Positions 1 to 56,656 of a stretch of 64,000 nucleotides of DNA are shown here, piece by piece. Position numbers and translations under genes: made by a program. Location: assembly GCA_002633005.1 (NCBI GenBank), contig NMRA01000106.1, positions 353,655-417,654 on the forward strand, read 5' to 3'. The stretch is from Phoronis australis (taxonomy: Eukaryota; Animalia; Phoronida). Under the pieces are notes generated by a model. It made no database searches. It saw only the letters and a list, made by a program, of their open reading frames with translations, and was not told where the DNA came from. Position 1 is the stretch's first letter; each line of letters starts with the position of its first letter.

Positions 1-505
1 GACATTTCGGCACGTTTTTCTGAAAACAAAGGATATTGAGTTTGCAATGGATTAAACTGCCGTGGTTGTAATGTCCTCAAGTATGTAGGTTGCCCGAAAA
101 GTACTTTGGGCTTGATCATATGAGTTACAACACAAGTAAAAAGCACGCAAATGGTGACACGGTTTGACAAAAGGTCTGTGAATACTTAAAATGAGCCTAC
201 ACGTACATGTACATGTACATGTATTATCTTAATGAGACTTCAATAACGTGATGAGAATTGCTGATGTCACGAAACATGTACCTTTCAAACAGGGCAAAGA
301 CAATACTTTTCATTGGACATTTTACCCGCCAAAAGGACCCATTTCATGAAACTTGTTTGCTCTTCACTGCATAATTTGCAAAGATATGGCCAAATGAAGA
401 TAGCACCGTCTTTTACAATTGTTTAGGACTTAACTCAAAATTTCAATATTCATAAAAAAATTTTGATTAGTTTCATGAAACGGGCATTGCATCGTAGTAA
501 CTCAC

Positions 506-721
506 GGCGGCTCAATGGAATGTCGGACTGTTCTTGTGTGCAATCTTTCCCAATGCCCATGCAATGCCGAGTCTCGATATCGTTGCCACTGCACACCAAA
601 TGCTGAACGATCTGGCGACCGCTGTTCCTTGGAAGGCACTGGCGGATTCTGCTGTGGCGACCGATTCCACAGTCAGCACCACACGGAGTCCAGCCAAGCC
701 ATTCGGACCATTTGCCTTTTG
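506..721 (-). CDS. Exon 9: TSP1 repeat 4 (frame not in ORF track)
   Basis: KGKWSEWLGWTPCGADCGIGRHSRIRQCLP...CSGNDIETRHCMG; tttcag acceptor, gtgagt donor, 216 nt, phase 1-1. Confidence 0.88.
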
Positions 722-3700
722 CTGAAAGTAATTGTGATCATGTCTTTCAGAGTTGCACTGTTCACACTTCAACTCGATAGTTTTCGAAAGATTAATGTTA
801 TGTGACAGCTGAGAAAATGCACAATTTTGACTATTTGTGGAACACCATGTCTTGAAAATGGCCGATCGTATTCTACATGTAATGGCACTGTGTTAGGAAT
901 TGGTTTTAAAGTTGTCCTCTTTGGATGGATTCGACATGTCAGTCAAGCTAAGAATAACAGTCAATCGGGTAGTGGGAACATGTAATGCAGATTAACGATA
1001 TCCAGCGAACGAACGAGGAAAAAATCTAGTATCGCTGATAAAAGTTCATAGTACTCTTTGCGGCCAAATGAATACACGACTGGACTACCATTGACGAACA
1101 ATCTCAACGTGAAATAAATTTGCCTTCATCATTCGTTTCACAACTATTTTATTTAATTTTCTTTAAAAATATCTGACATGAATAACCAGTTTAAAAATGG
1201 AACACGGAAACGTGTCCATGCCAACAACCCAACGCACTTTACGCTAGCTCACCAGGGGACATTAAAAACAACTTTCAAATGCAATGCATTGCGCGGAAGT
1301 AGTGTTTGCCATCAAGCAATTTATGCTCAAGTACGAAAAAGTACCGGAGCTCCTAATCTTGTAGCCGAGAATAAGAGTAGAATACAACGTAAAGTGTCTG
1401 ATAGTGATCAGACATGAGCATGCATGAACACTGACGTGTCAATAGGCTGGCGAAGTCTATGCAAGGCATAATATCGTACAGTATATACTACTGCTTGAAA
1501 TGGCCGGTTCTGGTGTTCATTTTGATAATGCGGCTCTGTATACTGTAGTTTCTGTGCAGTGAACTCAAAAACAAATCGTAGCTACAGTGTACGAAACTTT
1601 TGATGCTGCGGTACTCTTGCTACACTGGCTTTACGCTAGTGAACCGTCGCCACGGTGACAACTGAAGGCGTGACTTGACTGTGTTTGTTGGAACTAGAAA
1701 TTAAAACTCGAGTTTTTGCTCGAAATTTCGACTTTCTCCTCGAGTTTGTAGCTCAAATCTAGGAGGCTATCAAGCGTGATCGTGGATAAAACATATGAGT
1801 GAAAGCCTTAGTATGCTCGGTTACAGAAATGACTTGTATCAAGTTCACCCAAAAGTAGAGCGGAAAAAGGCAGAAATGATTTCGAGTTCTGATGTCCTTT
1901 TTCACGAAATAGGCATCAAGAAATTTTTTATGTCTTTTTCACGAAATTTTATTAATTCAGAACTTATATCGATAACACTGCTCAGTGCGCATGCATGCAA
2001 TTTGCTTTTGAAAACAATAAAATAATCAAGATTTACCTGGACAAGGGCCTTTGAAGCAGGGTTTGGTTATAGCCAGAGTTTTCTTTTGACCGGTGGACGA
2101 TATACATACGGGCGATTGAAAGCATATTCGCATAGATTTGTGTAGGCCGTAGACGCCGCAAGAAACCGAACAACGCGTCCATGGAGACCACTCGGTGTGA
2201 AACATTCCTGGAATCATGGAGAACAGTTGGAGTTTCACATTGCAAATGATTTGACAAAGCACGCACGTGCTATGAAAATATTCAATGAACAAACGCAAGC
2301 TATATTACACCACATTATAGCCTTGAATGGTCAATACAACCGTGTAATAACCCATTTAGTTATCTCACTAGTGAGATAATATTTTGGCGGCAATCGAGGC
2401 CAGTTTCGAAACCGGTCCGCAAGAGTTTCGAGTCGTCGACTTTACCACTGCACTACTCAGAGGCTGACTTAGATGAGCACGCGCAACAATCGCATGTTCA
2501 GCAAAGGGCACCGACATTTACACTATGAAAAGTAAGACGCATAATTTCCATAAATACGATATTTTAATTTAGTGAAATTTATCTCTCATTTTCTCTCACT
2601 TGTAAATCACCGATCTCCAATTTGAAAGCGGGTATCGTGTCGTCGGGATCCTTCGACTTGAGCATTATACTCAGTTACCAGTGGTAACCTACTTTAGCAG
2701 ACTACATTTTCTCGGTCGAAGCTTAGAGTGATAAATATGTAGTAAGCTATAATAGTTGCTAAACCTTAATTTATAGATTTACTTTCTTTCCATTGTGTTT
2801 AAATTTTCAATTGGTTTTAGTAAAAGCATTATTTGAAAAAAAATAGCTCGGCTTTTCTAAAAGGTCACGACCTGCGACTCCGGGCCTCTGACATAGATGG
2901 TAGATCGATTCATTGCAATTGTACACGAAAAACCCCGTGCATTTAACAAACTATCTAGACAAGCATAAATATTTACTCAGTAAATGTGTATATTTTCTGA
3001 AAGTACAAAGGCTACGAATTTTGATTTTTAACTTTTTAGCAAACTTTTATTAATTGGGTCACGTGACAGTGTTTTTTAGCAAAATTTAGCAAAAGTAAAA
3101 GTACATTGATAGCAAAACAACGATATCAAACACACGATCAAATTTTATTTGAGATAAACGATCAAGGTAATATTTCAAAAACGTTGTAACGAATTTCTAA
3201 AATATTATTTCGTTTTCGTTTATCAACGTTAATGATTTTTTATAAAAATCATGAAAGTATTATATTTAATAGCTCATCATGCAAAAGCGGAACACTGTAA
3301 AAGAATTCCTAATTTTGCTTATGAGAATATGCATAAAGAATTAAATCTGCCGTTTCTGAGATATGATGTTCCAAAATTTGCCAAATTTGGCCATTTTTAT
3401 AGGGTCTTATATAACCTAGTCAGGGAAACTGAATAATGTTATCCCAACACAAAATCAACCAAAGAAATCAGTTATTTTGTAGTGTCAGCAATTGCAAGCA
3501 GTATTGTTTCACTTCAAGCTCAACACAATTATCACGCAAGAGATATTTTCTTCGGCTTTCATTGACTATTAGGTGCATACATTTTCACCAATTTCATTAT
3601 TTACAAAGGCATAGGAAGTCTGGGGTGCAGCCAACGAAAACAGTAGGCTTTCATAGGTTCTGGTTGTGTGGGTTATTTGACAAATTAGCAACCTGGCACT

Positions 3701-6700
3701 CCGATGCAATCGTGCCCGAAGCAAATGGCCTCTTCATAATGTGGCGGATCACAAGTAAACCCTCCATGCGCAGGCGCTGGATTGTTACATCGTCGTCTGC
3801 GCAACTTCCGGCCCTCACCACACCGTGCTGAGCATTCATCCCATGGTCCCCACTGCGACCACTTTCCATCAACTGTCAAAAGAAAAGGAAGACTGCTGTG
3901 AAAATAGCTCAAACTGTATGTTGTAGAGTGGGAAAATGTCGTGCATGTCGTTTTCCCCACAGAAGATCTCGCCTGCCACTTTTGGTATGTAATTGATACT
4001 TTCTCCGAGATATTATTAAGAAGGTACATCTAAAACTGGTAATAACAGATCAAATCACATGATAATCACAATTTGCTAAATACATCGGTAATGTGATACT
4101 TTGACAAGATGATTTTTGCGTAGGTGAAGTAGTGTTTCATCTAATTACAAGTGCACAGTACCAAATGCATAATGTAATGAAATTGACCGTGCTGTTTTGA
4201 GAATTTGATTAAGGTAATCTTGAAGTATTATATTTCTGTTTTTAGGATGAAACGAGTAGGACAACCTGCCTAGCACGCCAAAATGTTTTGTGAAGTTCAT
4301 TATTTTGCGCGCACATGCAACCCATCTGGTCATTGATTCTAACGTGTAATGTAGTGCTATCAGTTCAGTGGCTGAAATACCTCCTAGGTGATTTTGTTTT
4401 GAAAAGCGACATAAGAAAGCTGCAGCCAGTTTCAGAGGGCTAAAGACTTAACCGTTTAGTTTAAGTCGACTTTTAATACATGGTTTATTTCTTCAAGTTT
4501 CAAGAACTTACCTTGACAACCCGAGGCGTGCTTGTAACAGCTCAGCGCTGACCAGTAATGAGTCTGAAATTAATACGTATTCATGTAGTGCTTTATGGGT
4601 TATGCTGAGTGTGAAGAGGAAATGCTGTAGCAACGGTATATGAACGTATGTCTCAGGCAATATTACATACCCGTTTCATCAAAGGTCTTATGACCGATAG
4701 TAGCTAAGACGGTCGTACGTACTCACGTTAATGCAAAGGCGAAGTTGCGATTTTTTTAAGAAAACGTTAGAATTGACGCAAAAAAGAAGAACATTTTTCA
4801 CAATGAAACATTACGACCGTGTGAGCTAAGACTGTTCATGTAGTTGCGACCAGTGCTGTAGTGGTAAACTTAGAGGTAAGTAGGCGCCGAAAGCTCACAG
4901 TATGACCTTGATGACTGATGGCAAATTACGGTGAGTACGCGCTACGTTCAAATGTCAAAAGGTGGTTGGTTGCGACCTTTAATAAAACAGACCCACTTTC
5001 CCGCAAGGTGTCGGTCAACTCTACCTATAAATTCGGTTTTCAAATTATAGTTCCCAGCGTTATGTTTAATGGAGTCACGCTCTTCGCTTCCCTTTCCAGT
5101 AGCTCTATTAGGAATTCAATCACACACAGACTGCGCTTGTACAGTAGCAGTGCAAATGTTTGCTGCAACGAAAGAAACTCCCTCGCTAATAGCCAAGATG
5201 GCTCCATGTATGTTTCTAAGACAAACTATTTTAGTTTTGACACTAGGCAAACAAGAGTGGATGAGATTTTGAAATAAAATGATACAACTATGCAATCCAC
5301 TAGTATATCGCGAGTGCCTTGCAATTCAACCCTCATTGGGCCACATCAGAAAGATAGAACGAAGCACGCATCATGTGTTGTACAGTCGGCAATCAACACT
5401 CATGAGTGTTCTGGGCCGTAAGCGACAGAATTCTTATACAACTATTCAGTGACCACTTTTGAGGGGCAATATTGGTTTTGATATTTTTGATATCGCGAAG
5501 CATTGTCACTAATGAGAAAGAAATGCTCGTGTGTAAACATTTCCATGAAATTTGACTTTTGAATCTGGCTAATTCTGTAAATAAGTTATGGAATGCTAGA
5601 TTCTCATAAAAGATGATACTGCAAATAATATTTCAATAGGTTGGTTAAGTCAGCACAAAGTTCTTTTTAAGTTTTTCAAGTTAAATGCAAATTTAAGGCA
5701 AACTTCTGAAATTATGAGCGTTAACTGGTGGTGAAGTTAGGAACTAGGACATAGATAAAACCAGGAAAAGAGCGGCAACAGCTAGAGCGGCAACACCTGC
5801 TGTTTTTTCCATCGCTGGGTTCCCACAACAGGTTTTCTTACCGCCTCTCTTCCCGAAATCGTCTTCAGAACTCTCAGAAACGTGCAGTGGTTTTCGAAGC
5901 AAGCTTTCTTCAAGTCCGGATGCGCTATGTGGACTGTCTTCATCACTGCCAGGGCTTCAAGTTCAGCTTTATTGTCCCTCCCTAAAACAAAATAAAATTT
6001 ACGACAGCTGTTACAGCAAATTTCCTATAGAAAATCTACCTCAATTCTTTCATGGGATTATTGGAACACGCCTCATAAAGAGCTCGTTAACACAATGTGG
6101 AAATTTTGCAACCAACTTCTGAATATCGGGAAGTAGGTCGTTGCAATGAAAACTGAGATACAACGGAACTCATCTACATGTAGGATAAATGACGAGTCGC
6201 AAGTTTCAATTGATTTCCGTTAAGCTTTATGGTAAATGCATTAGATTAATACAACATTGTAAATAAACCTGTATGAGGTTACACCCTTAAATCTAGTAGG
6301 CCCTGGTGTGGACCCAGGCCAAAATAGGCTTACTTAAGATAACCAACAAGGATTGATAAGGAATGAAGCTGCAAATACTATTTCCACATGATTTTGTAAT
6401 TAGAAATGTATTGTACCAAATTGATAGTTGTGACCAGTTAATGTTACGAAATGATAGCAAATTGTTCACGGGTATAATTATGAAAATTTATGGTCAGAAA
6501 AAAAAACAGCATAAAACACACGATGATGATTACAATTCATTAGAGTTTATCAAACTTTGTTAAGAACGTTCCAACATCTGCAGTACATCAATTCAACACC
6601 TATACGTTACTTTTTAAAGTAAAATGCAGTTTTCTAAGAAAGAAATTGACCGCGCCAACAGTAAGCGATAAAGTAGGTGGTCCTATAATCTCCGGCATTT

Positions 6701-9700
6701 GTGCATAAAAATTTGTTTTTTACAAAAACGTGAGATTAAACCGCCAGGGGTTATGAAAAAAGGGTTGCTTGAGGATAGGTTACATGAAAGTTGAAATGAC
6801 AAGTTGCCGACTGGCATGGTCACGTGATGAAACGTTTGAAGCTACAGCCAATGTGGACAGGGAAAATGTGACGAGATGGCGATTACAAGGCTGTACACAC
6901 GATGTATTAACGTGTGACGTAAATATAGATCTGACACGTTGCTAGTTGAGTTTTCGCGTCTACGTGAGCAGAAATACGAAGTAGACACGATGATAAGCTA
7001 GCATATAGTTGGGTTAATACGCTTAACAATTACCTCTTGGGCATCGACCGAAGCACCCTTCCTCCTCTCGCTCAAAACCAGAGCACCTGTAGCCTCCGTA
7101 GGTTGGCGCAGGGTTGTCGCATATGCGTTTTCTCGTGCGTATACCGCGGCCACAAGGAACGCTGCATTTTGTCCAACCCGTCCACTGAGTCCAAGACCCG
7201 TCCACTGTAAAATGTCGGCAAACGTGTGTAGGAGCACACTTCCTGTAATGTCAGGAAACCCCTAACGCCAGCAGTTCATCAAAAAGAATCAGACATGTCA
7301 TAGGCGCGTCAATCACTTCGTACTTCATTAATGAATGCAACTGTGTATACGTTAAAATGTCAGCATCAATGTTCTAATGAACTGCAGAGCCTCGGGACGT
7401 CATATTAAAAAATTGCCAATCTTAAGCGTGTAGATGTTGCTCTGACTCATAATGGAAACTGAAAGAAACTAAACGTGTGTTTTTGTTGCAGACAAATACA
7501 GTGTAATCTAACCGTGAACTTATTCCCAGTCTCTCCCCGCAGTCTTGTTCTTATTTCTCCCTCTCCTTATTTGGAAAATTATAACTCCAGCTCAACGCTC
7601 TCTTTATATACACTGTAGGACTCTTCATACCTTTGAACCATGTTTATCTTACCTGGGCAAGTGTTTGGACGTTTGGTAAAAACACACTCATACGTCATCC
7701 ATAGCCGGTACTGAAATCAACCAGAAAACTCTTTACTTTGGCTCCTTTGATCATGGTCAAAAAAGCAGCCGAGTAAATGGTCACCTCGTAGCTTTTACTG
7801 CAGGAAATTACCAGACAATTTCTACCTGCTTTACGTTTTACTCCTATTTAAAATATATTTTTGTTACAAAACTATTGATTAAATATCTCAATTAAGTCGA
7901 AGGCGATGTGTGATTATACCATGCTGCCTTGCTTCGAATAGCTCTTCACACGCAGAGTGGTGTGCCGCAAGTCACGTAACCCATTCAGGGTATTCATTTG
8001 GTGTGTGCTCAGCTTACTCCAACTCAGTTAGTCAACTCGCCACTCTTCGTTTTCACAGAGCCCGTGAAATGATACAGTAAATAACATTTCAATGACGCAG
8101 CACTACCTTGTGTCACAGAGCCACATCTGGCAGCTGTTTCTAGAAGCCAGTCTATGGATAGCTTAGCTTGTTTGGCGAAATCAGGCTAAAGCTAATAGAA
8201 AATCTATCTACTGTTCAAAGCCAAAAGAAGGTAATTCGTAGCTTGCTTGGGATCAGACTAAAAATCAAAGTCAAAAGAAAAAGTATTAACTTTTGTCTAT
8301 ACAGTAGCATTTGAGAAACAGGCATCTTGGTGACATTACTACCCCTTGCTGTACGATAGGGATCAACATAAAGGTCAAACAGTAGGTCCATCATGGACAA
8401 GCCAAAATCGCAGAATTCAAACCCAAGAAAATCCTCTCAACGACAATGAAAGTTCCAGTTTGAGTGATCAGTCAACTCCATTTGGTGTATGGTTCTGTCA
8501 CGCCAATGCTAACTTGATGTATTGAGAACCGAAACAAAACATTCCTGGACCAGTCATTCAACAGATCATGCAACTTTTTCCGAAAAACATGCACAGTGTA
8601 GCCGCAGCATTTGTTTAAAACAAGAGAAGGCTAACGAATTATCAATTGTCTTGTTATGGTAGGCGTAAGTCTTCAGACGGTTTTGTCACGATCCCCATGA
8701 AAAATATTACGAAGAGGTTTTGATTTTTAAAGAGAATATATGAAAGTTAGGTATCCCATGGAATTGTCACTGATACCAAATGTATTATTACATAAATATG
8801 TATCTACGAATGAGCGGAAACAGCAATTTGTGATTAAGTACTCATAAATTCATGGTTGAACACGTAAGGACGGCTAGCGTATGCTTAAAGCTTATAAATG
8901 TTGGTTCTTATGGCCTCATATGTGACGATACGCCTATATAACCAAGATCCGTAGGCACATGTCTCTATACATCAAAACATTTGAGTAAAACGTTTTTGTG
9001 ACAAATATCATGTGAGCGAAATGGAGTTATCCGTTCTTAATGGTGTACTTTGACGTGTATATAAAATTGCTATAATAGTAATATATATGTGAAAGGCCTA
9101 AGAATGTTCAAAAACCGCACAGGCATAGAGAACCATTTTAGCAAATTTATCCTTGTAAAAACGCAATATTTCGCCTACGGTCGAAAAAGCCTCAACAGGT
9201 CATAATTTTTGATTGGAGAAATATACACTGTACATAAAAAGCTTATTGCAATTTTGTAAAAAATGAAGTGAATGGGTCTGCGGAAAAAATGAAAAATTAA
9301 AGTGGAGCTTGGACGCTAATTCCTTATCTCTGTGATTGCATGGTCGAATTAGTTAAAAACATAACATATAGCGACGATGTGAATGTGAAGTAAGTTGAAA
9401 ATTGACAAATATTTTTAAGAGTGAGTTTTGTGTCGAAAATGATCCGACGTAAATCATTCAACCGTATCCAGTAAGTATAGTGACGTGGGGATGGAGGAGC
9501 CACCAAGGTACGTCATTAGTTCAAGGGTCACCTGAATTTTTTGTTTTCACATTTAAGTTGTCAATGAATGAAACTCACTGCACTGTTTAGCGTAGATGAT
9601 GTTCAAATAGCATTGTCGTTTAGTTACTGCTACACATGAGCATAGTTAGGGGCATGCAAATACATCTTTAATTTTTTTACTTGTGTACACCAGCTTTAAA

Positions 9701-10677
9701 GTGTCTATAAGGTTCGGAACGCCTTGTGGTGTTTTTAAAATGAGTGTGCTACTCGTCAAAGTCTTTAGCACATGTGAATTGGCTCGTGTGTTCAAGATCT
9801 ATGTAACAGAATCTCTAACCTTTGATTCATCGTTGATTCTGGGACTTGTGAATTTGAACATAGGCGTGTCTCCAACCACGTCTTCAGAGTCACACATCTC
9901 GTCTACTTCTAGACATTTCTTGACGAATCGCTCTCGGTCGGCCTCGACGAAAAATGGCAGTATTTTATTCATCAACTCATAAGTTGAGTCTATACCTTGC
10001 GACGGATCATCTTTCAGAGAAAAAAAACGAGAGTAAGAGTTTTGGAGTCAATGAATATTTTTATGTACACATACATGTATAGGCCTACCTTGTCATGGTA
10101 ATGAAGACATTGGTTTAATTATGAGATACTGATCAACTCTTTAGGTTATGCTTGCGTCTCATCAACCGTGGATGGGAATAATAATGTCATTAGCTGATCA
10201 GCACTTCTTTAAGAACTGAAAGAATGCAAATTGTGTAACAACATTTGATTTGCAGGTAACAGACTATTGTTATCTTTGTTGGGACCTGTACAACTATTTA
10301 ATTGTCAGCGCCTGATTGGTAGGAACCGTGCACAACAGGACAACGTTTATTCTGTTTCAAGGTCCCCAGTGCAGATCTTCCCAGTTGTGTAACCTAAGAA
10401 TACTCCGGTGATGACGAATGGCGAGTCAACAAACACACTTACATGTACTGTACTTACACACTTTGAGATTACACTGGAAAAAAGGACACCACGTGGTGCC
10501 TGGGGGAATGCTGCATTGTGGGAGGAAAAGTAAAAAAAGTTTACCTCGCAAAACGCTCATTTCAATGACTAACCTTGAGCAAATTATTCCGGCGTCCACA
10601 AACAGGAATTACTTACCTTGTTCGAAAGTAATATGAAGTAGTACGAGGAAAAATAACAAAGATCTCCACGTGGTCAT
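506..10677 (-). CDS. Spliced gene, probably 3'-incomplete: secreted protein with signal peptide, Gla-like module, TSP1, Gla-like module, TSP1 x3 (at least 413 codons in window)
   Basis: Nine exons with GT-AG borders and compatible phases: 10617-10677, 9820-10010, 7653-7710, 7034-7204, 5842-5981, 4512-4563, 3693-3872, 2037-2207, 506-721. The joined frame has no stop. There are four WxxWxxW/CxxxCG/RxR TSP1 repeats. The last exon ends in a strong C|gtgagt donor. Confidence 0.85.
2037..2207 (-). CDS. Exon 8: TSP1 repeat 3
   Basis: EWSPWTRCSVSCGVYG...MRIC...KPCFKGPCP; 171 nt, phase 1-1, ttccag / gtaaat. Confidence 0.9.
2385..2460 (-). pseudogene. Degenerate tRNA-derived (SINE-head-like) remnant
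   Basis: Minus strand GTAGTGCAGTGGTAAAG...GACTCGAAA...GGTTTCGAAACTGG gives A-box-, anticodon-loop- and B-box-like blocks with broken stems. Confidence 0.4.
3693..3872 (-). CDS. Exon 7: TSP1 repeat 2
   Basis: VDGKWSQWGPWDECSARCGEGRKLRRRRCNNPAPAHGG...; clear acceptor. The donor (CCAG|gttgct) is weak, so the 3' border is less certain. Confidence 0.9.
4512..4563 (-). CDS. Exon 6: aromatic-stack-like exon THYWSALSCYKHASGCQ
   Basis: atttcag acceptor, CAAG|gtaagt donor, 52 nt, phase 0 to 1. Same W..C..C pattern as exon 3. Confidence 0.78.
5842..5981 (-). CDS. Exon 5: second Gla-like module (...HPDLKKACFENHCTFLRVLKTISGREA)
   Basis: ttgttttag acceptor, GCG|gtaaga donor, 140 nt open, phase 1 to 0, L-x3-C-x4-C-x-F pattern. 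Confidence 0.75.
7034..7204 (-). CDS. Exon 4: thrombospondin type-1 repeat 1
   Basis: VDGSWTQWTGWTKCSVPCGRGIRTRKRICDNPAPTYGG...; 171 nt, phase 1-1, ttttacag / gtaatt. Confidence 0.93.
7653..7710 (-). CDS. Exon 3: aromatic-stack-like exon YRLWMTYECVFTKRPNTCP
   Basis: tttcag acceptor, CCAG|gtaag donor, 58 nt, phase 0 to 1. The phase-1 reading hits a stop. Confidence 0.75.
9820..10010 (-). CDS. Exon 2: first Gla-like module (...LPFFVEADRERFVKKCLEVDEMCDSEDVVGDTPMFKFTSPRINDESK)
   Basis: Poly-T tract plus aag acceptor, 191 nt open in phase 1 to 0, donor AAG|gttaga. It supplies the phase change needed by the next exon. Confidence 0.7.
10617..10677 (-). CDS. Exon 1: ATG and signal peptide MTTWRSLLFFLVLLHITFEQ
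   Basis: ATG at 10677, hydrophobic core, phase-1 donor CAAG|gtaagt. Confidence 0.8.
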
Positions 10678-11452
10678 TCTGCTCTCTGACCTCTTGTCCT
10701 TTCGACTTTTTCAACAATTACATACCTCTTGCTTTAGCTGAAATGTGTTCGTTTATGTGATAACGTTTAGTTACGTTTGGCGTGATGTCACTGACGGGTC
10801 AAGAATCCATTACACCCAAAGCACAAACATTCACCATAGCAACAAACATGATTTGGATCACGGTTTAATTCCTTCTTTTAATTTTCAATCTGAAATTACG
10901 ATTTTTGTTAAAGCAAATTCAGTATTCATTATTATCTTGTCAGTCAACTCGAAGCCAGCCACCAGGAAGAACATGAACTAAAGGATCTTTTCCCTTAGCA
11001 TCAAGCCATGGATATTTAAGATATTGTGGAGCTTGGTGCGAAAAGGTAATAAAATGATAACATAATAAGGGAAATGGAAATGTGTTGTTGATGTTGTTTT
11101 ATATCCAATAAAAAGACCACCTTTTTTAAAGTATGATCTTGAAAAAATTAACGCGAACTATGCGGATTTATCTCAAACTAAAAATAAGTCTTTTCTCATG
11201 GCCTGGGACTGATGGCTGGTACAGTAAGGCCCAGGACAAGCCATTATGAATACAGTTAGCGTGCACTACTTTTTTGGACATGGTAAGCCAAATCGAATTT
11301 AACAGAAAGATACCAGAGGATGCTAAGAATAAAAACGCAAACAACTTCATGAATGGTTTGCTGTTCATCCGGCTTTCCAATGTTTACTGAATACCATGGC
11401 TTGCCGGGACATGTAAATACATAAACACAAAACGAAGGTTGAACAAAATACA

Positions 11453-12070: not shown

Positions 12071-14390
12071 ACATATGGCCATAGGTCCAAACTATAACAT
12101 ATACAAGACAGAAGGGCATTGTCAGGTACGTTACAAACTGGATAGTAAATTGTGACGCTTGAGAGCATGATGGATGAATTTTAAAAGTAGGATATCTGGA
12201 GTTCTCATGAGAGATTCAAATTTAGATGTCGTAGGAGAATGACAAAAACGACCACTTAAGTACTTAACCCGAAGGTCTTGGTAGCACTGCAAACTAACAA
12301 AAGGTGGTATTCGTCCTATACGCAACCCGAATTACATAACTCACACAACCTATTTTCATAGGGAATATTTTTGAGGCGACCTCTTTCCACTAGTAACGAA
12401 TGATTTGAACATCGCAATCGAGTCAGAGGCTGGATAATTCTCAAGACAATACATTGTTTTATACCTCACATAATAAGGCAATTTTGCGTTACATTCGATA
12501 TCAGATTGCCAGCCTTGCAAATAAGAGTTGTTGACACGTTGAGAAAAAACTGTCAAGAAATACGCTTGGTTTACCACACCCTAATTAATCCATACATCTG
12601 AAAAACCATACACAGACAGAAGTTTCCTTACAAAATTTGCCTAGTTATAAGATGATCTTCCGATCAGGTCTGACTGAAAAAGCATATCATATGGAGCCTT
12701 TACCCTACGATTACCAGGCATCTCCAGAATTTTGAACCAGTATTTTACACAGGATACAAAATATTTACTAAGCAATGGGAATCGACCACATTCTCCCATA
12801 ATTTCCGAGTTTGAAGAACAACTGCCTACTCCTAAAATGTGTTCAAAACTTGACATTTACATTTTCCAATTGTCCATATTCCTTAAAGCCCCATATTTCA
12901 GCGCCGTAACACAGATGGGGATAAACCATTTTATCGAACAGGTGAAATGCTATTGACGAGGATAGATCACGACATGTTAGCTTTAATTTACAAATTGCAG
13001 AGTCAGCTTTATTTGCTTGACTAGATAGGGCTTTAATGGCTTTGGTCCACGAAACTTTTGGAGTAATAAGTAGTCCAAGGTATTTGTAATGAGACATCAC
13101 GTCGACCAAAGTTCCTTTGTAAAACCATTTCTCATATCGTCTAAGGGGACCACAATTTCTGAAAACGACCACTTTAGTTTCCTTCAAGTTAAGTTGCTTG
13201 CCCCTTGATTCGCAAAATTCTGCCAAACAATTTAGCAGACGCTGTAAGTTGATGGCAGTAGAGGAACATAACACCATGTCGTCTGCGTACAGCAGGGAGT
13301 TGGAGTTGACTCTTGTCACTTGTTCGCTGATGTATGTGCTATTAATATCACTGTTTGCACTCAGCTGATCCAGAAATTCCTTTAGATACAACACAAATAA
13401 TAATGAGATGATCATGCCACCCTGGCGAGTGTCAACAGTACAATTAAAGAACTCTGTAAGACCATTTTGAGTTTTCTCACAAATGCGCAATTTACTATAC
13501 ACAGAGCGGATTATGTTGAAAATTTTACCATGCACATCAATGTTTTTCAGTCTATGGAAGAGTAAATTATGTGGGATTCAATCGAATGCTTTCGAGAAAT
13601 CTACAAAGGCACAGTAAAATCTCCCACCCTGCCGACTCAAATACTTGTGACACATAGCTTGAAGTGTAAACACTTGGTCAGTCGTAGAATAGCCTTTTCT
13701 AAAGCCAGGTTGAGACTCATAGAGTTTATCATTACTTTCAGCCCAGTAATAAAGACGATTATTTAGAAGTTTGGTAAAAAGTTTTCCCAAAGCACACAAA
13801 AGGGAAATACCTCTATAGTTATTTTCGTCCTTGATATTACCTTGTTTATGTACTGGAGTAAGCACTTCGTCACACCAAGTCTGGGGATAATACCCAGAAT
13901 AAAAAATTGCATTAAAAACTGGCGCTATCGCTACCTCAGTGCACTTCAGCATTTCAAAAATCACCCCATCATAACCCCCAGCTTTGCCATCAGGCAATTG
14001 TTCAACGGCCTCATATATTTCAGAAGGCAAAAATCAGTTTTAAGATCAACTGGGTAATTGTTAGTACACTTTTCACAGGAACTATCACGTTCAATCATTT
14101 CCTGCTTGGCAAATTTACTCAAAGACTCGTCAATAGAGCAGTTTTGGTTCAATTAATCCTTGAAATAGGCGTGCCATTTCTGCAGACTAATTGTAGAAGA
14201 CATACGGGATGTCCGAATATTGGATTTAATTATTTGCCAGAACTCCATAGGGTTATTTTGGAACGTTTAATGGCTTCAATAAGTCGGGCTTCATATGTTT
14301 TCTCTTTCTGTTTAAACAGATCATGGAAAGCCTTCTTTTTACTTTATACGCGTTATGGTAAAAAGACAGAAAAGTTGAACTTCGTCCTCT
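12054..14390 (-). mobile_element. Decayed, 5'-truncated non-LTR retrotransposon (RTE-X-like), RT pseudogene
   Basis: Frameshifted ORFs with NYRGISLL, QPGFRKGYSTTD, FVDFSKAFD, LLYADD and YKYLG motifs. A C-terminal CxxC..DEYH..C knuckle lies near 12290-12350. The 3' end has AATAAA near 12056-12061. The clade call comes from motif style only. Confidence 0.88.
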
Positions 14391-16862: not shown

Positions 16863-19194
16863 GAAATGTGTGTGTTATCTCTTGTAATTAAGGAACCCAT
16901 CTGGTTCCTTCTGTGAAATATTTATTTGTAGAGCTGTGACCCTGAAATTCCCAATACAACTTAAAATATTTATTATTCTTGTTGTTTTATTTGTCCCCAA
17001 TAAATAACAATAAAGCAACAGCAGCATTGATATGAATGACATGTACATATGTACATGTATATTTGGACATTCGGTTTGCGATGATTAGATGCTTTCGGTT
17101 AGTGTTGATCGTCAATATTTTTGTGAAAAGTGCCTCGCGTAATTTTTTATCATTTGCCCAACTTCTTCCTTTATATACGAATGTAACTTTGTCTCCTACT
17201 AAAATACTTTCATGTCCCTTTATTATCTCTTGACTTACATCAACACAGGCCACTGTTGTGTATTTTGCTTGGAACGAACACCGGCGGTAAAATGATAATT
17301 AAGAATATAATTGTTTTTCGTTTAAAGTAGATTAGACAATACTAAGTAGCGATGTTCAGGCAGTCACTGCAGCTGTCAATAGCAAAAAGTTTACTCACCT
17401 TTAATTCACAGCTCATCAAGTTTTTAATTATTATTCCTGGCAATTTCGTTGTTTAAATTTGAGGCTGAAGTCTTGTGATTCTACCGTCGCGTGCAGAAGA
17501 ACGTGGTCAATAGTAATTTTGTGTGAATCTGTAAGTCGCTTACGCTGTTTATACCTTGTTTTTCAAAAAACTAAACTAACATGTGACTTTACAATACAGT
17601 ATAGCATATCAATTGTGAAATATTTCACGAGAATACAACAATGGAGATTATCAGTGATCTAATGGAAAAATGGATGTAGAGAAAATATATATGAGGGGAG
17701 CCTTATTGGAAACAAACCGCATCACAGAAATTTGTCACCCCAGCTTCCAGAACAATGCCATCATCGGCTCCACATATAGGGACAGATATCTTGTCTTACG
17801 GTCCAACATCATAGTAGTTAGAAAGGATTAGCAGTTAGGTGTATATTCTCAGACACTTAAACACCTTTGCTCATGTCAGGTTTAATTATCTTTTCAGGAA
17901 TAGCTGAGTGTAGCCAAAGATCAAATTGCTTAAATGTATGCCACTGTTCAAGCAACAGACCCTAGAGTTCAGTTTAGTGAAAGAGGTTTTAATATTTAAA
18001 ACAACTACTGTTATCATGATCCCAATCCATGGACCCGTTTCAAGAACACTGACTTAGCTAAGACAAATCTTAAAGGCAGCCTCCAGTGGCTAAAACACCT
18101 TTTTGACACCAGAAATGCAAGTATTTTTCATAAAAAATGTTGTTGTTTTTGCTTCTTACATACCACGAAAAGTAATTGACACGTAAATTACATCGCTCAT
18201 AATTCGTAGCCCCTTCGAGCGCTCCAGAAAAAATCTCAACCAATCAGAGTGCCATTTCTTGGACGTTTTGTACTTATCGATCTCTGGGCTAAAATGCCGC
18301 GTTGCGTGGTGTACGGTGTAGTAATGTCAGCGGCAATGGCATACATATGCACGTGCGCCGTGCGTTGAACAGATTCGTATCCACGACAAGGACTGGCGAC
18401 AAAATTCCCGATCAGCAAGATCTATTCTAGACTAGGTGCAAAACTGTATACAAATTCTACAGCTTCGCGCCGATGTGGGTAAAAAATGACTAAATAAAAT
18501 CTGACTCAGAAGTAGTGTCATTAAAAGCTGCACCGCTCTTTGAGTAAACCAAGTTCTTTACTGGTGTTGGAAAAAATATCGTACTACCGCTCATCTACTG
18601 CTAGAATTGAAGTGGGCTCTTCTGCGTCGGCTTTTGGTGATTACGTCACCTGACCTGAACAGTTTCTTTTCCCACGGTGTGTTCTTCTATCAACTGTTCT
18701 TTGCTGCCACGAGGTTGCGTACTGTCACAACAAATTGTCGGAACTTGTTTCATTTCGTTACAAGTTTTCAGTATTTTTAAGACGAGCAAACCGAATTTTA
18801 GAACGAACATTAGTGCTGCAAAGCTGTCATCCTGTTCTAAAAGATGTCGCAAAGTTTTAGTACTGCGCGTGTGCGTGTCAGGAGCGTACTGGCAAGGTGA
18901 GTGTCCGAATTGTCTCCGAGATTTTGTATGCACCCCGTCGGTCGTTGGCTCTGGGATATGAGTTTCACAACGAGGTGACTAACCCGGCCTGTATGAAATT
19001 TCGTGGTCTAACGGAGCTCCGGCTCAATTCACAGTGTTACCTAGCTGTATTTTGGAGATAGTTTTCAAACTCAGCTACCTGGCTGGCTACAAAAAAAATC
19101 TGCTGTGCGCACTTTGGTGTTGCTGTTCCGGCCAAGCGTATTGGGAATCTGGCCCAAATCGGAATATTCTGCATGATTTAGGTCGTTCCCGTAG

Positions 19195-20680
19195 GCCTAA
19201 CGCACAAGTCCTTTATTTTGAGTATCTGTGTAGTCTTAAATAAAGGATCCGTATGGGCATTAAAATGACTAGAGGTAATAGTACGTACGAACAGCCTTTT
19301 TCTGTAATTTGAATATTCTATGATGTTCACATCCCCATAGCAGAATGTCATAATTAAAATGAGGAAGGACAAGGAATTTATATACAGTTTTCAAAGTTTC
19401 AAAGGGCAAGAAATGTTTAATGCTGTTAAGAACACCACAGAATCTGAGTATCTTTCTCAACACATTGTTTACGTGTGGAGTCCATAACAGGTTTTCGTTG
19501 ATGGTAACACCAAGAAAATTCAATGGATAAACTCTTTCTTTTTCCAAGTCATTAAACTTTAAATAAAAACCATCAATACATTTTGGGTGTTTATGAAAAA
19601 ATATGAATTTTGTTTCAGTTGCATTTAAAACCAGTCCATTTACATTTAACCAAGACTGAATTTTCTCCAGCTCTCCAAAATACATGGGTGACTCATCAAC
19701 AAACAACGTGCTATGGATACCATAAATAATAGTAGTATCATCAGCATAAAGTATGCAGTCAGAGAAACTCGTGAACTTCACAAAATCATTCATATAAATG
19801 ATGAATAATAACGTACCCAGTATAGACCCATGTGGGACACCCTGCAGAATTGGAATTGTGTTAGATTTTATGTTATTAATATGAACATAGAGAGATAATT
19901 TCTCAAGAAGCTTAAAGACAAGGGATTGCAACCATAATATAGAAGTTTTTCGGGTAAAATTGAATGACTAAAGGGTCAAAAGCTTTGGAAAGATCAATTA
20001 GAATGGCCAGGGTAATTTATTATTTTCCATAGCCTCGACAATTCTATCCGTAAATTTAGCTGAAGCCAGTTCTGTCGAGTGCCCCCCACGAAAACCATAC
20101 TGGGCAGGTTGTAGCAAGTCATTAGATTGGAAATATTCGTAAAGTTGATTATAAATATTGTTTTTCGAAAATCTTTGAAAAGCCTGAATGAACAGAGATA
20201 GGCCTGTAATTATCTAAAAACAACGGGTACCCTTTTTTAAGTACAGGAATAACCTTGGTTATTTTCAGGTTTCAATTTTGGTTGAAAATGGACTGTTTAA
20301 ACACAAAACACAATGGTTCAATCAATAGATTGTTTAGACATTTTATTATTTTCATGGATATGCCATCTTGACCACAAGTAGGTTTAGCTAGAAAAGAATT
20401 AATCACTTTTCTAATATCAATTGGGGAAATTGGTTCAAATTCAAATCTACATGTAGAAGGGTATTTACAATATAAAAAAGACATGTGACAAGTTTGAAGA
20501 ATGGGTAGGTAGAGAGTGTGAGGCAATATTACTAAAATAATTATTAAAATGATATACAATCTCACCCTCGTCACAGACCACTTCATCTTTTATCTTCAAT
20601 CTGGTAGGTTTATTTGATAAGACATTTCTATTCAACAAATTATATAATAATATATGACAAACTTTAAATTTCGTAAACAT
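19195..20680 (-). mobile_element. Decayed non-LTR retrotransposon fragment (CR1/L2-group RT pseudogene)
   Basis: GQDGIS, GVPHGSILGTLLFIIYMND, LYADDT, FLGVTINENLLW, KLQKKAVR and NAHTDPLFK motifs split by frameshifts. Confidence 0.88.
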
Positions 20681-23275: not shown

Positions 23276-26200
23276 TCACATGATTGCGCATTTTGTGTTT
23301 GACTGTCCTTCCTTTTGATCCAATTTATCACAACTATCTCGAGTTCGCATCCTGAGTAGATCCGCCCTGATGCTAGGACGCCTTGCGTTCGGTGACACAG
23401 CTCCGCAGGCGTCACTCAGCTTCCGGCGTATACTCACTTTTGACCGACCCGTTTTCCCACCATTACTACTCACATAGTTCGGCTGAACTCTTCGATGTAA
23501 CGAAGGACTCATTTCAGTAGGTAGTTTAGCCTGCGTAAACAACTTCACAAAAACCTCATCAATGTTTAAATCCTTTTTGGCAGACGTTTCTACAAAATGA
23601 CACGAAGGAAGGTGATCGATGATATGCTTTATTTCAAACATGTCAACTGCTTTGTCCGCCAACTCACACTTGTTTCCAACTATCACCATGACGGCGTTGG
23701 CCATTTTCTTTTTTTTCTTTTGGTCACTCGACATTTGTAATTTACTTTCTAAGATCTGCTCCCGCAAACGCAGCACTTCTGTAAAGGACGCTGGGTTGTC
23801 GTAACTGAACACGAGCACAAACAGGTCACCTGAAACGACGGGAATGCAACTTAGCTTTGTGGCAAGGGCAACTGTCGAGAAATTGACGTTAATACCCAGA
23901 GTTCACATGCTGTATGGATCAGAAAGCACATCAGACGTCTGATCCGCTCTCTGAGAAATTAAAATGAGAAAGGTAGTCAGACATCCGCTCTATCTTGTTG
24001 TCGTCGGAACCCAAGTCGGGCATATACTAGCCTCCTTGCCATGAGGAGCCTACGTTCCAATGACGTGATTAGTGGTTAGGTTCTGCGAGCCTGTGGTGAT
24101 TGGCAAGAATAAGCATGTTGCACATAAATACAATGTTAATTACTCATGCAATCCTTCGTAAACGCTCATTTTAAGCGCCCAGACGTTTTTCTGATCAGAC
24201 TTCCAATCGTTCTATCTGCCCCCATGAAAATTTCATACGGTTCAAGTTTAATAAGTGCTTTACACTGCACGTGCGTGTATTGTTAAACACATTTTTTCAG
24301 GTAAGAGGCTGAGGAGCGCTGGCGTCTAAGTGTTTGACGAATACAACTATTAATTAAAATTTCTTGGTCTATTTACACCGACCTCTTGTCTATTTACACT
24401 GTCACGACGTTTCGGTCGGTCTATTCTCCGGCCATCGTCAGGTGTTCCTGCGTTCTTAAAAGAAGAACGGATATGTGGTACACCCATCATGGTGTGGTTT
24501 TTTGTCCAAGGCAGGATTTGAACCCTCGACTTCTGAAACTACAAATAATTTGAGTCCAGCACCTTAACCACGCAGGAACACCTGACGATGGCCGGAGAAT
24601 AGACGGACCGAAACGTTGTGACACTGTAAATAGACAAGAGGTCGGTGTAAACAGACCAAGAGATTTAAATAATAGTTGTAATACGCCACCACCTCAGAGC
24701 GGTTTTAAAAGGTCGTTTGAAGAATAATTATAATTATAAAGAATTTGGAAACCACCAAAAGATGTCAAATGTTTGTGTTCAGTAACCAGACAGATACAAT
24801 ACAAATTGACATGGAACTAGTCGTTTGAGACAAACGCATTATAATTAAGATTTAGGGGGTGTTATTTCGTGGTAAATTTGTCTTAATGAATCTTTCTTCG
24901 AAACTGATAGCGGACGATTCTTGTTTAAGCAGACCCTTCGGAGTAAACGTTTCTCAAACTTTGGGCGTCTTTTTAAGGTTTGGTGATGTCATGTTTGATT
25001 TTATAGGAAATTGTTAGCCCTTGTTAGTCTTTTTTGCGTAGTTTTCCGTAATACTTTCCTCGAAGCTTCCCGCACTTTTATGAACAAAGCCAACATTGTC
25101 GCACATTTGAGTATGGGTGACTAGAGATATCAGCACCTGACGGATGTATATAGACGTCACATACACAAAGGATTTGGGAATGGTGTTCATGGAAAACATT
25201 GGTTTAACACTGGTTTCCCAAAATTAAAGGTACCTATGCGATAGACATTTAACGAAAGTTGTTCTAACTAATAGATAAGAGATTCGAAACCTGACTTCAG
25301 CAAATTTGCGCAATATTTATGCTCCTTTGAAAACTAATTTACAGTTGAAATATAGTGCTTTTTCCTTTGTCGATCGATGCATCGTGCTCAGGTGTTACAC
25401 GGGATTTGTATAAAGATAAAGGTCTGGATGAAATCTGAAAACGACGAAGCACCAATCTACGTCCATTTCACTAATATAAAGGTTTTAACCATTCAGGTTG
25501 ACATCTTGCCTTATTGGAAACGGGTTTCGCTTATGACAGTTTTTGTTTTTCTAATTACCAGTTTGTCGTAGCTCTACAATCATGTGAGCCAATTTGGGAA
25601 AAATTTGTACGATATTTGTTAACTCGCATAGCTATAGTGTACATTTTTTATTGTGTTTTTAAGTGTGTGACAATGGCGTAATAGCTGATTGTCGAAAGAG
25701 CCCCGCCATATTGAAAAGCACTAACCTGTTAGACAGCGATCAGGTCTTTGGTGGACATGCGTTCAGCGCTATCTACAGATCCCATGTAATGGGAACGGGT
25801 GGTTTCAGCCTAGTGGTATAAGCAGCGTTCTAACACCTTCCCTGCCACTGTAATGTGGAAAAATCTCCGCTACTGAGTGGTGGAATGTACCAATGCTTTA
25901 CAAAAAGGCGAACCTTTTGAAATATCAATTGGTATGTAGAAAATGAATCTCTGTCCACCAAATCTGTGTTGGGATCAAGCGGAAGCTCAGTGTACTTTCG
26001 TGACCTCATTATTCTAGAGAGCGCCAATACAAAAATCCCCGTATTTTATTGTGACACTGATAGTACACGCGCGTCCCTCAGGTGATACAATGTACACCAG
26101 TTGAGAACGAAAAATACTTTTCTCGCCTGAAGCATTTAAATAGATGCTTGCGAAGTTCCTTGGGAAGCACCATACTATTTTTACCGAAGGAGAATTGTGA

Positions 26201-35200: not shown

Positions 35201-35638
35201 ATGAGAATGAATCGTGTTTCAGCCTGAAAAATATAGTACTTTGACCCTGAATTTAAGCTCCGTGGACCTAATTACATGTTGCAAAAAATAAGCAAGATAA
35301 GTGTATTTTTCTCGCATCGCAGCCAGAGCTTACTGTAGTTGTCAAGTTTAATGTGGTCTTTAGATGGACATCGACTTACCGGTCATTAAGCAGAGTCTTC
35401 TCATTGCCGGAAATGGATTGTTTCCCGATGTATCCAGGATATCAAGTCTGTAGGCTTCGCCACGTATTTTATAGATTTTCCTGTGAAAGTCTTCTATAGT
35501 TGGCGTGTACGTGTCAGTATATTTACTGTGAAGAAATCGTGACACCACGGCAGTCTTTCCAACTTTGGCAGACCCAAGCACAACGAGTCTATAACAGTTA
35601 TTCGCTGGAGCATTCTCGCCTTCGTCCTGCAGATCCAT
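23276..35638 (-). CDS. RASD: RASD-family small GTPase (Dexras1/Rhes-like), 270 aa, exons 35380-35638 and 23276-23829
   Basis: G1 GSAKVGKT, effector YTPTIEDFHRK, G3 DTSGNNPFPAMRRL, G5 ETSAK, plus LPTEMSPSLHR, PNARRPSI and CAAX CAIM. A phase-1 intron (ACCG|gtaagt ... tttcag|GT) falls at the LMTG/DLF position, as in RASD1/2. Confidence 0.95.
24402..24445 (-). ncRNA. Minimal type-I hammerhead ribozyme motif (GUC site)
   Basis: Minus strand cac-CTGACGA-T-GGCCGG-agaataga-CCGACC-GAAAC-GTC-gtg. The core is intact, helix II has one mismatch, and helix I is 3 bp (cac/gtg). Confidence 0.65.
24503..24571 (-). pseudogene. tRNA-Leu(CAA)-like SINE head
   Basis: GTGGTTAAGGTGCTGGACTCAAA...GAGGGTTCAAATCCTGCCTTGGACA gives a D-loop end, a CAA anticodon loop, a long variable region and a B box. 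The 5' end is cut by the hairpin arm. Confidence 0.6.
24578..24621 (+). ncRNA. Minimal type-I hammerhead ribozyme motif (GUU site)
   Basis: cac-CTGACGA-T-GGCCG-gagaataga-CGGACC-GAAAC-GTT-gtg. Confidence 0.6.
33023..33100. repeat. Loopless 78-bp palindrome centred on CCATGG
   Basis: The arms match except for two substitutions and a 6-nt insertion (TA to TACATGTA). Confidence 0.9.
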
Positions 35639-35939
35639 AATTGATATTAAATGTATTGCTTTTACCTGTAATCACCTACGTTTTAAGCTGCAATTTAATT
35701 TTGTAACTGCGCGGCAAGTAATCGCTGAACTGTCGCTTAGATTTGCATTTAAAGAAATCGATAATTCACGCACATATTCCTTTCCGAAGTGAAGGCAAAT
35801 GACAGAATGCCAATTAGCGTCTTTGAATCCGCATTTAAGTTCTTGTCTCTTGTGGAAAACAATTCTTTGCTCGGTAATAGCAAAATCTTCTGTCACCAGT
35901 GCTTCACTCTCCTCTGTCCGATGCGCTGTTCCGCTTTAA

Positions 35940-56617: not shown

Positions 56618-56656
<39 letters not shown>

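What the first reader, a model, noticed from the sequence alone, without database searches (positions are those of the whole stretch)
4512..10677. Secreted TSP1 protein with two Gla-like modules that have lost most Gla glutamates but keep the coagulation-factor exon layout
Seen in sequence: between the signal peptide and the TSP1 exons are two exon pairs absent from the ORF track. Each pair is a phase 1-to-0 exon with a Cys pair, followed by a short phase 0-to-1 exon beginning x-x-(L/Y)-W. Module 1 is FFVEADRERFVKKCLEVDEMC...ESK|YRLWMTYEC. Module 2 is DLKKACFENHCTF...REA|THYWSALSC. Established: vitamin K-dependent proteins such as prothrombin and factor IX encode propeptide plus Gla on a phase 1-to-0 exon and the xxFWxxY aromatic stack on a small phase 0-to-1 exon, with consensus FLEE.....LERECxEExCxY/F. 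The F4-to-C17 spacing (module 1), the L-x3-C-x4-C-x-F pattern (module 2) and the intron position before xxFW all match. Inference: these are Gla-fold homologues in which ERE became VKK or KKA and most carboxylatable Glu and the RxxR propeptide site are gone. They may be vitamin K-independent or repurposed binding modules. I know of no described Gla-TSP1 protein with this layout, but I cannot run a search.
Basis: partly seen in the sequence, partly recalled or inferred. Interest (0 to 1): 0.85.

Follow-up and report, generated by a model that had tools for sequence, protein, structure and literature searches.

The report
Secreted TSP1 protein with eroded Gla
This animal gene makes a spliced RNA for a predicted secreted protein in which two small modules, likely worn-down copies of the calcium-binding head of blood-clotting factors, alternate with adhesive thrombospondin repeats, which suggests the head can be kept for a job that needs neither vitamin K nor calcium.

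Summary
The gene is real. Stranded RNA from 2 of 4 runs confirms all 8 coding introns, and no exon skipping was listed among exons 1-7. It encodes 431 aa: signal peptide, module 1, TSP1, module 2, then three TSP1. One TSP1 lies between the modules. Standard searches do not call either module Gla: Pfam gave no hit, hhalign P was 0.008-0.14, folds of single exons did not match Gla, and no orthologue was found. A profile of 63 real Gla domains, scanned over 393 positions, put its best two exon junctions exactly on the two real phase-0 introns in 3 of 4 settings; 0 of 1000 permuted profiles did so. Much of that comes from the x-x-F-W block, but the Cys exon adds support (20 and 6 of 1000). Module 2 keeps 1 Glu and module 1 keeps 5, against a reference median of 9. 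Both lack Phe-16 and a dibasic propeptide site. An intact Gla followed by a Cys loop and a TSP1-like start occurs in another animal contig (L078). Verdict: probably Gla-derived (about 0.7), probably vitamin K-independent, function untested; a new variant of a known kind.

The parts
17399..17430 (-). 3' end of an upstream non-coding exon (its 5' end was not mapped); spliced to 10737
   Evidence: Loose read ends at 10739 (81 and 45 reads) match the window at 17401 and are followed by a GT donor
10617..10737 (-). Exon 1: 5' UTR, ATG at 10677 and a predicted signal peptide of about 20 aa; ends in phase 1
   Evidence: in-frame stop upstream of the ATG; it holds the most hydrophobic 19-residue window of the protein, and no later window exceeds 0.55. 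No signal-peptide predictor was run.
9820..10010 (-). Exon 2 (phase 1-0): module 1a, with a propeptide-like stretch, C-x6-C core and 5 Glu
7653..7710 (-). Exon 3 (phase 0-1): module 1b, with L-W-x-x-Y block and C-x8-C loop
7034..7204 (-). Exon 4 (phase 1-1): TSP1 repeat 1
   Evidence: Pfam TSP_1 E=2.5e-11
5842..5981 (-). Exon 5 (phase 1-0): module 2a, with L-x3-C-x4-C-x-F core and 1 Glu
4512..4563 (-). Exon 6 (phase 0-1): module 2b, with Y-W block and C-x6-C loop
3693..3872 (-). Exon 7 (phase 1-1): TSP1 repeat 2
   Evidence: Pfam TSP_1 E=5.7e-12
2037..2207 (-). Exon 8 (phase 1-1): TSP1 repeat 3, divergent
   Evidence: Pfam TSP_1 E=0.0014, below the curated cut-off
450..721 (-). Exon 9 coding part: TSP1 repeat 4, a basic tail with a seventh Cys, and TGA at 452-450
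   Evidence: Pfam TSP_1 E=4e-05

Best explanation
The gene is spliced into a 431-aa protein with four TSP1 repeats and two small Cys modules that are likely decayed Gla domains, and it is predicted to be a secreted matrix or adhesion protein in which those modules would act as calcium- and vitamin K-independent structural or protein-binding units. Shown: transcription in 2 of 4 runs, splicing, exon phases, TSP1 repeats, loss of Glu, and no dibasic site or Phe-16 before either core. Inferred: a phase 1-to-1 cassette of [propeptide+Gla exon][aromatic block + Cys loop exon] was joined to TSP1 exons and came to occur twice. An internal copy cannot shed its propeptide without cutting the protein, so it cannot form the membrane-binding N-terminal loop (recalled Gla biology). 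Selection on the Glu residues and the cleavage site then lapsed, while the two Cys and the aromatic-Trp pair that hold the fold were kept. The basic TSP1 repeats (predicted pI 8.7) would bind sulfated glycans or cell-surface receptors.
For: Real Gla genes fetched here have a phase-0 donor 75 nt after the Leu of the core (printed for 11 of 19 genomic loci examined) and an x-x-F-W exon downstream (12 of 19), mostly ending in phase 1 after 25 nt. Module 2 has its donor 72 nt after that Leu. Junction-anchored profile of 63 Gla domains: module 1 was reached by 0 of 400 shuffles and 0 of 368 decoys, module 2 by 0 of 400 and 2 of 568. Of 393 positions, the two real phase-0 introns rank 1 and 2 in 3 of 4 settings and 1 and 3 in the fourth. 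0 of 1000 fully permuted profiles do this. With the F-W block kept and the rest permuted, 20 and 6 of 1000 reach the real scores. Unanchored HMM: module 2 reached by 1 of 568 decoys. The kept residues (two Cys, aromatic-Trp) are those PMC9669250 names as most conserved besides Glu (passages). A Cys loop follows the Trp block in fish prothrombin and in several invertebrate-type Gla proteins. L078 has an intact Gla, then Trp and a Cys loop, then a TSP1-like start.
Against: Pfam Gla gave no hit for any module exon. PDB sequence search found no Gla chain. hhalign probability was 0.4-4.9%, P=0.008 (exon 5), 0.14 (exon 2), 0.02 (both). Unanchored tests of module 1 are weak: 26 of 368 decoys, 3 of 300 shuffles. 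With the F-W block kept, 74 of 1000 permuted profiles still rank both introns in the top 2, and upstream-only ranks are 21 and 22. Module 1 needs a 2-residue insertion between the Cys and about 9 more before the intron. The two modules are barely similar to each other (local 1298 of 2000, global 54 of 2000 shuffles). AlphaFold folded exon 5 alone as a helical hairpin with both Cys in one helix. The family was chosen after seeing the sequence, and the reference set was picked on an intact core motif. No functional data exist.
Confidence: 0.66

Rival explanations
1. The modules are lineage-specific Cys-stapled spacers or an undescribed non-Gla domain, and the likeness to Gla is chance noticed after the fact.
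For: No curated or standard search calls them Gla. No relatives among 1.84 billion representatives for exon 5. The F-W block drives much of the junction ranking, and TSP1 exon starts also score on it.
Against: The intron is predicted to the codon in both modules. 0 of 1000 fully permuted profiles do this, and the Cys exon adds signal in both. Phases 1-0 and 0-1 match real Gla genes.
Confidence: 0.2
2. Module 1 is still a partly working acidic calcium-binding unit, perhaps partly gamma-carboxylated without propeptide cleavage, and only module 2 is fully decayed.
For: Module 1 lies right after the signal peptide, keeps 5 Glu in the core window and has net charge -6. Read by hand, four of these Glu fall at canonical positions 7, 19, 20 and 25 (numbering recalled). 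The carboxylase is present in invertebrates (PMC5578492).
Against: No Phe at -16 in the register I read, no dibasic site before the core, Glu14 and Glu16 replaced, and the Cys loop widened.
Confidence: 0.1
3. Only module 2 is Gla-derived; module 1 is unrelated or too altered to call.
For: Module 2 has canonical spacing and passes the unanchored test, while module 1 does not. The two modules hardly align with each other.
Against: Module 1 gives the best F-W block in the protein and the top anchored score in 4 of 5 runs. It has the same exon phases and the same Trp-to-Cys distance of 5 as module 2.
Confidence: 0.04

Closest known systems
Gla domain (Pfam PF00594) of factors VII, IX, X and protein C
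   Same: Phase 1-0 exon with a Cys pair, then a small phase 0-1 exon with aromatic-Trp at codons 3-4; L-x3-C-x4-C-x-F in module 2.
   Different: 1 or 5 Glu instead of about 9; no Phe-16; no dibasic cleavage site; roughly 7-8 residues shorter across the propeptide junction (read by hand against the consensus); two copies, one internal; TSP1 instead of EGF and protease.
Prothrombin N-terminus (Gla, aromatic block, disulfide loop)
   Same: A Cys pair follows the Trp block (P0037, L004).
   Different: Trp-to-Cys distance is 5, not 6; the loop is 6-8 residues and sits on the same exon as the Trp; no kringles or protease.
Unannotated intact Gla gene on metagenome contig L078
   Same: Gla, then Trp and a Cys loop, then a TSP1-like start.
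   Different: Its Gla core is intact and passes the Pfam cut-off; its introns lie elsewhere; the TSP1 match is partial and weak (E=0.03-0.1); exon joining was read from DNA only; orthology is not shown.
Drosophila Commissureless versus PRRG4 (PMC5578492; section 7 and passages read)
   Same: A published case for a remote, Glu-poor Gla remnant in an invertebrate protein.
   Different: Transmembrane sorting receptor; its propeptide residues are said to be kept; no TSP1; the paper calls its Gla homology weak.
Secreted TSR proteins such as properdin and cnidarian TSR-only proteins (PMC5446238, passages read)
   Same: Signal peptide and tandem TSP1 repeats with W-x-x-W and basic motifs; no enzyme domain.
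   Different: No Gla-like modules are mentioned ('gla' occurs 0 times).

Membership tests
Gla domain (PF00594) | Scores above the Pfam gathering threshold | tested here: not met
   No hit at E<=10 for exons 2 and 5 or the ORFs around exons 2, 3, 5 and 6, each scanned alone
Gla domain (PF00594) | 9-13 Glu in the core | tested here: not met
   5 in module 1 and 1 in module 2; reference median 9 of 63 domains; 9-13 in PMC9669250
Gla domain (PF00594) | C-x4-C disulfide loop | tested here: inconclusive
   Met in sequence by module 2; module 1 has C-x6-C; the bond itself is not shown
Gla domain (PF00594) | Aromatic-Trp block 18-21 residues after the second Cys | tested here: inconclusive
   Module 2: Y-W at 18 (met). 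Module 1: L-W-x-x-Y at 28 (displaced)
Gla domain (PF00594) | Exon layout: phase 1-0, then 0-1 with Trp at codon 4 | tested here: met
Vitamin K-dependent proteins | Propeptide with Phe-16, Ala-10, Leu-6 and a dibasic cleavage site | tested here: not met
   No R-x-x-R or dibasic pair before either core; 49 of 63 references have one. No Phe at -16, read by hand against the consensus in PMC5578492
Vitamin K-dependent proteins | Gamma-carboxylation and calcium-dependent membrane binding | not testable with these tools
   Needs mass spectrometry and binding assays
Gla domain (PF00594) | Gla three-helix fold | tested here: inconclusive
   Exon 5 alone, no alignment: helical hairpin, no Foldseek match at E<=0.001, no Gla among the 50 VIA rows shown. 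Exon 2 model pLDDT 48.5. The third helix lies on the next exon and was not in either model
TSP1 (TSR) superfamily | W-x-x-W repeats with six Cys, Pfam TSP_1 | tested here: met
   3 of 4 repeats are above the cut-off and the fourth has E=0.0014; six Cys each

The most novel reading that the evidence does not exclude
The Gla cassette is a mobile module that can be copied into the middle of a protein and survive as a vitamin K-free 'apo-Gla' domain. This gene would be the first expressed example with two such domains, and it would mark a hidden class of Gla-derived domains in invertebrate secretomes that Pfam misses but intron position can reveal.
Probability: 0.4. Interest if true: 0.7.

Novelty: new variant of a known kind. 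Interest (0 to 1): 0.48.

Why it matters
Gla domains are defined by their carboxylated glutamates and their place at the protein's N-terminus. Invertebrates have the carboxylase but few known clients (PMC5578492, passages). An expressed gene that keeps the Gla exon pair, the Cys and the aromatic core while dropping the Glu and the propeptide site would show that the scaffold has value without calcium, and that it can move inside a protein. It also gives a way to find such domains: search by exon junction instead of by the Glu motif. The impact is limited by having one gene, no orthologues and no function.

Tried and rejected
Orthologue hunts found nothing. Exon 2 against longer proteins: 5 candidates, none at E<=1. 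Exon 7: 4 generic TSP1 proteins of 5 candidates, none with a Gla or module match. Exon 5 against 1.84 billion representatives: 0 at E<=0.001. These are 46-63 aa queries, so the blanks are weak. A Gla profile search gave 904 hits among 7985 scored candidates; none of the 120 listed carries TSP1, those with a name are all vertebrate, and 784 were not seen. The Gla core pattern gave 0 matches in viral contigs and 19 in prokaryote genomes, 18 of which looked like chance; none was used. No whole genome is held, so paralogues and a carboxylase gene could not be sought. The Atlas could not read the window exon or P0036; two searches with stored factor X P0107 gave no usable hit. Folds: exon 5 gave only generic helical-hairpin matches, best Z 5.7; the exon 2 model was too poor to search; no control fold of a real Gla exon was run, so these blanks are uncalibrated. 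No run was listed as holding the stretch; the four runs came by species label. Exons 3 and 6 as decayed TSP1 exons were rejected, because they begin in phase 0 while TSP1 exons begin in phase 1. A membrane anchor was rejected: no hydrophobic window after the signal peptide. Nine paper searches listed no paper whose title or abstract start describes a Gla-TSP1 protein. The Ciona Gla paper (PMC1635082) is not held and may bear on novelty; no supplements were read. Earlier scan notes: three look-ups were empty and one listed other Gla cases.
Full report
Observation. The minus-strand gene has nine coding exons between 10677 and 450. Stranded reads from runs X1 and X2 cross all 8 introns (30-89 and 35-84 reads per junction). 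X3 and the X4 contigs show none, so expression is limited to some samples. All introns are GT-AG. A second lay at 95% likeness and 1% share over exons 1-7 listed 8 joints, none skipping an exon. A non-coding exon ends near 17399. The product is 431 aa with 33 Cys, predicted pI 8.7, no N-glycosylation motif and no hydrophobic stretch after the first 20 residues. The order is signal peptide, module 1 (exons 2-3), TSP1, module 2 (exons 5-6), then three TSP1. Four fixed RNA-DNA differences lie in TSP1 exons 7 and 8, two of them silent; none is fixed in the module exons.

Standard tests for Gla. Pfam gave no Gla hit for the module exons and the PDB sequence search found no Gla chain. To get real Gla sequences I scanned metagenome contigs for the core motif and got 82 loci. 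I kept 52 that looked like true Gla by eye and left out 30. A profile search added 120 database proteins. After removing near-duplicates, 63 of 192 domains formed the reference. This set was picked on an intact core, so it is biased towards high Glu. hhalign against 23 of these domains gave P=0.008 for exon 5, 0.14 for exon 2 and 0.02 for both, with probabilities under 5%. An unanchored HMM placed module 2 above all but 1 of 568 decoys, but module 1 was reached by 26 of 368. A local profile was reached by 3 and 8 of 300 shuffles. On sequence alone, module 2 is suggestive and module 1 is weak.

Exon-aware test. In 19 genomic Gla loci examined, a phase-0 donor 75 nt after the core Leu was printed for 11 and a downstream x-x-F-W exon for 12, mostly 25 nt long and ending in phase 1; four invertebrate-type loci had their donor at 84-93 nt. 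I fixed that junction in the profile and scored the modules at their RNA-verified introns. Module 1 was reached by 0 of 400 shuffles and 0 of 368 decoys, module 2 by 0 of 400 and 2 of 568. Trying all 393 positions as the junction, the two real phase-0 introns ranked 1 and 2 in 3 of 4 parameter settings and 1 and 3 in the fourth. None of 1000 fully permuted profiles did this. Against the reading: with the F-W block kept and only the upstream columns permuted, 74 of 1000 still put both introns in the top 2, and upstream-only ranks were 21 and 22. The upstream exon still adds signal, since only 20 and 6 of 1000 reached the real scores. The two modules barely resemble each other, so their matches to Gla are largely separate evidence. 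The family was chosen after the fact. I put Gla ancestry at about 0.8 for module 2 and 0.7 for module 1.

What has been lost. Module 2 keeps C-x4-C, the Leu before it, the Phe after it and Y-W at 18 residues, but only 1 Glu. Module 1 has C-x6-C, a longer linker and 5 Glu. The reference median is 9, and 49 of 63 references have a dibasic site before the core, which neither module has. Phe-16 of the carboxylase recognition site (PMC5578492, section 7) is absent in the registers I read by hand. The residues kept are those PMC9669250 (passages) names as most conserved besides Glu. Both modules end in a Cys loop five residues after the Trp, like the loop in fish prothrombin and several invertebrate-type Gla proteins.

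Structure. AlphaFold on exon 5 alone gave a helical hairpin (pLDDT 82) with no Gla match by Foldseek or VIA. Exon 2 with exon 5 as a second row gave pLDDT 48.5. Both models lack the third helix and had no family alignment, and no control was run, so this is inconclusive.

Relatives. No orthologue was found. None of the 120 listed Gla proteins has TSP1, but 784 hits were not seen. Locus L078, a 33% GC contig with introns, has an intact Gla that passes the Pfam cut-off, then an exon with Trp and Cys, then a second Cys and a partial TSP1-like start (E=0.03-0.1). That is a possible precedent for the pairing, read from DNA only. The organism is an animal; a marine invertebrate is my inference from weak bivalve TSP1 hits.

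Mechanism. Most likely (0.66) this is a secreted, basic matrix or adhesion protein. Its TSP1 repeats would bind sulfated glycans or receptors through W-x-x-W and basic motifs, as described for TSR domains (PMC5446238, passages). The two modules would be Gla scaffolds held by disulfides and the aromatic core, acting as spacers or protein-binding units without calcium. Both modules are phase 1-to-1 cassettes, which fits exon shuffling among phase-1 TSP1 exons. An internal copy cannot free its N-terminus, which Gla membrane binding needs (recalled, not from a call), and this explains the loss of Glu and of the cleavage site. The odd Cys in the tail could link two chains (inference). Rivals are chance likeness (0.2), a partly working module 1 (0.1) and only module 2 being Gla-derived (0.04).

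Known and novel. The modules fail membership of the vitamin K-dependent Gla family on Pfam score, Glu count and propeptide, and meet it on exon layout. The closest published idea is the weak Gla remnant proposed for Commissureless (PMC5578492). PMC9643190 (passages) lists Gla architectures of clotting proteins and does not mention TSP1. PMC13425148 and PMC3141003 (passages) added nothing on this. Nine searches listed no Gla-TSP1 paper, but most subscription papers and the Ciona Gla paper are not held. Verdict: real gene, probably a new variant of a known kind, interest 0.48.

Noticed in passing
L078:206-1079 (+): Intact Gla core with an intron right after the second Cys, then exons with a Trp block, a Cys loop and a TSP1-like start: a possible Gla-TSP1 gene in another animal.
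   Followed up: partly
L066:1317-1814 (-), L068:31-519 (-): Gla, Cys loop and a chitin-binding peritrophin-A domain in a short protein with a signal-peptide-like start (Pfam on L066).
   Followed up: partly
L034:142-1674 (+), L036:52-1707 (+): Gla, a transmembrane stretch and a tyrosine-kinase-like region, read by eye from the translation.
   Followed up: no
L088 (507-base contig of a bacterial assembly): Carries a Gla region that reads the same as the prothrombin-like L004, so it is probably animal contamination.
   Followed up: no
window 23279-23902 and 35363-35671 (-): Two exons of a Ras-family GTPase, Rhes/DexRas-like by recall, ending in a CAAX-type motif.
   Followed up: partly
window 55849-58641 (-): A 931-aa open frame with 9 EGF matches and a long Ser/Thr-rich mucin-like region in what appears to be one exon.
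   Followed up: partly
window 12843-14033 and 19269-20589 (-): Broken LINE-like reverse transcriptase pieces, read by eye; the first lies inside the 5' UTR intron of the gene.
   Followed up: no
window 7710-7920: Minor GT-AG joint into exon 3 from within intron 2, 3 reads in X2 only.
   Followed up: no
window about 1700-1750, 2330-3080, 4850-4975, 9297-9670: Intronic repeats that draw reads from both strands in all three raw runs.
   Followed up: no
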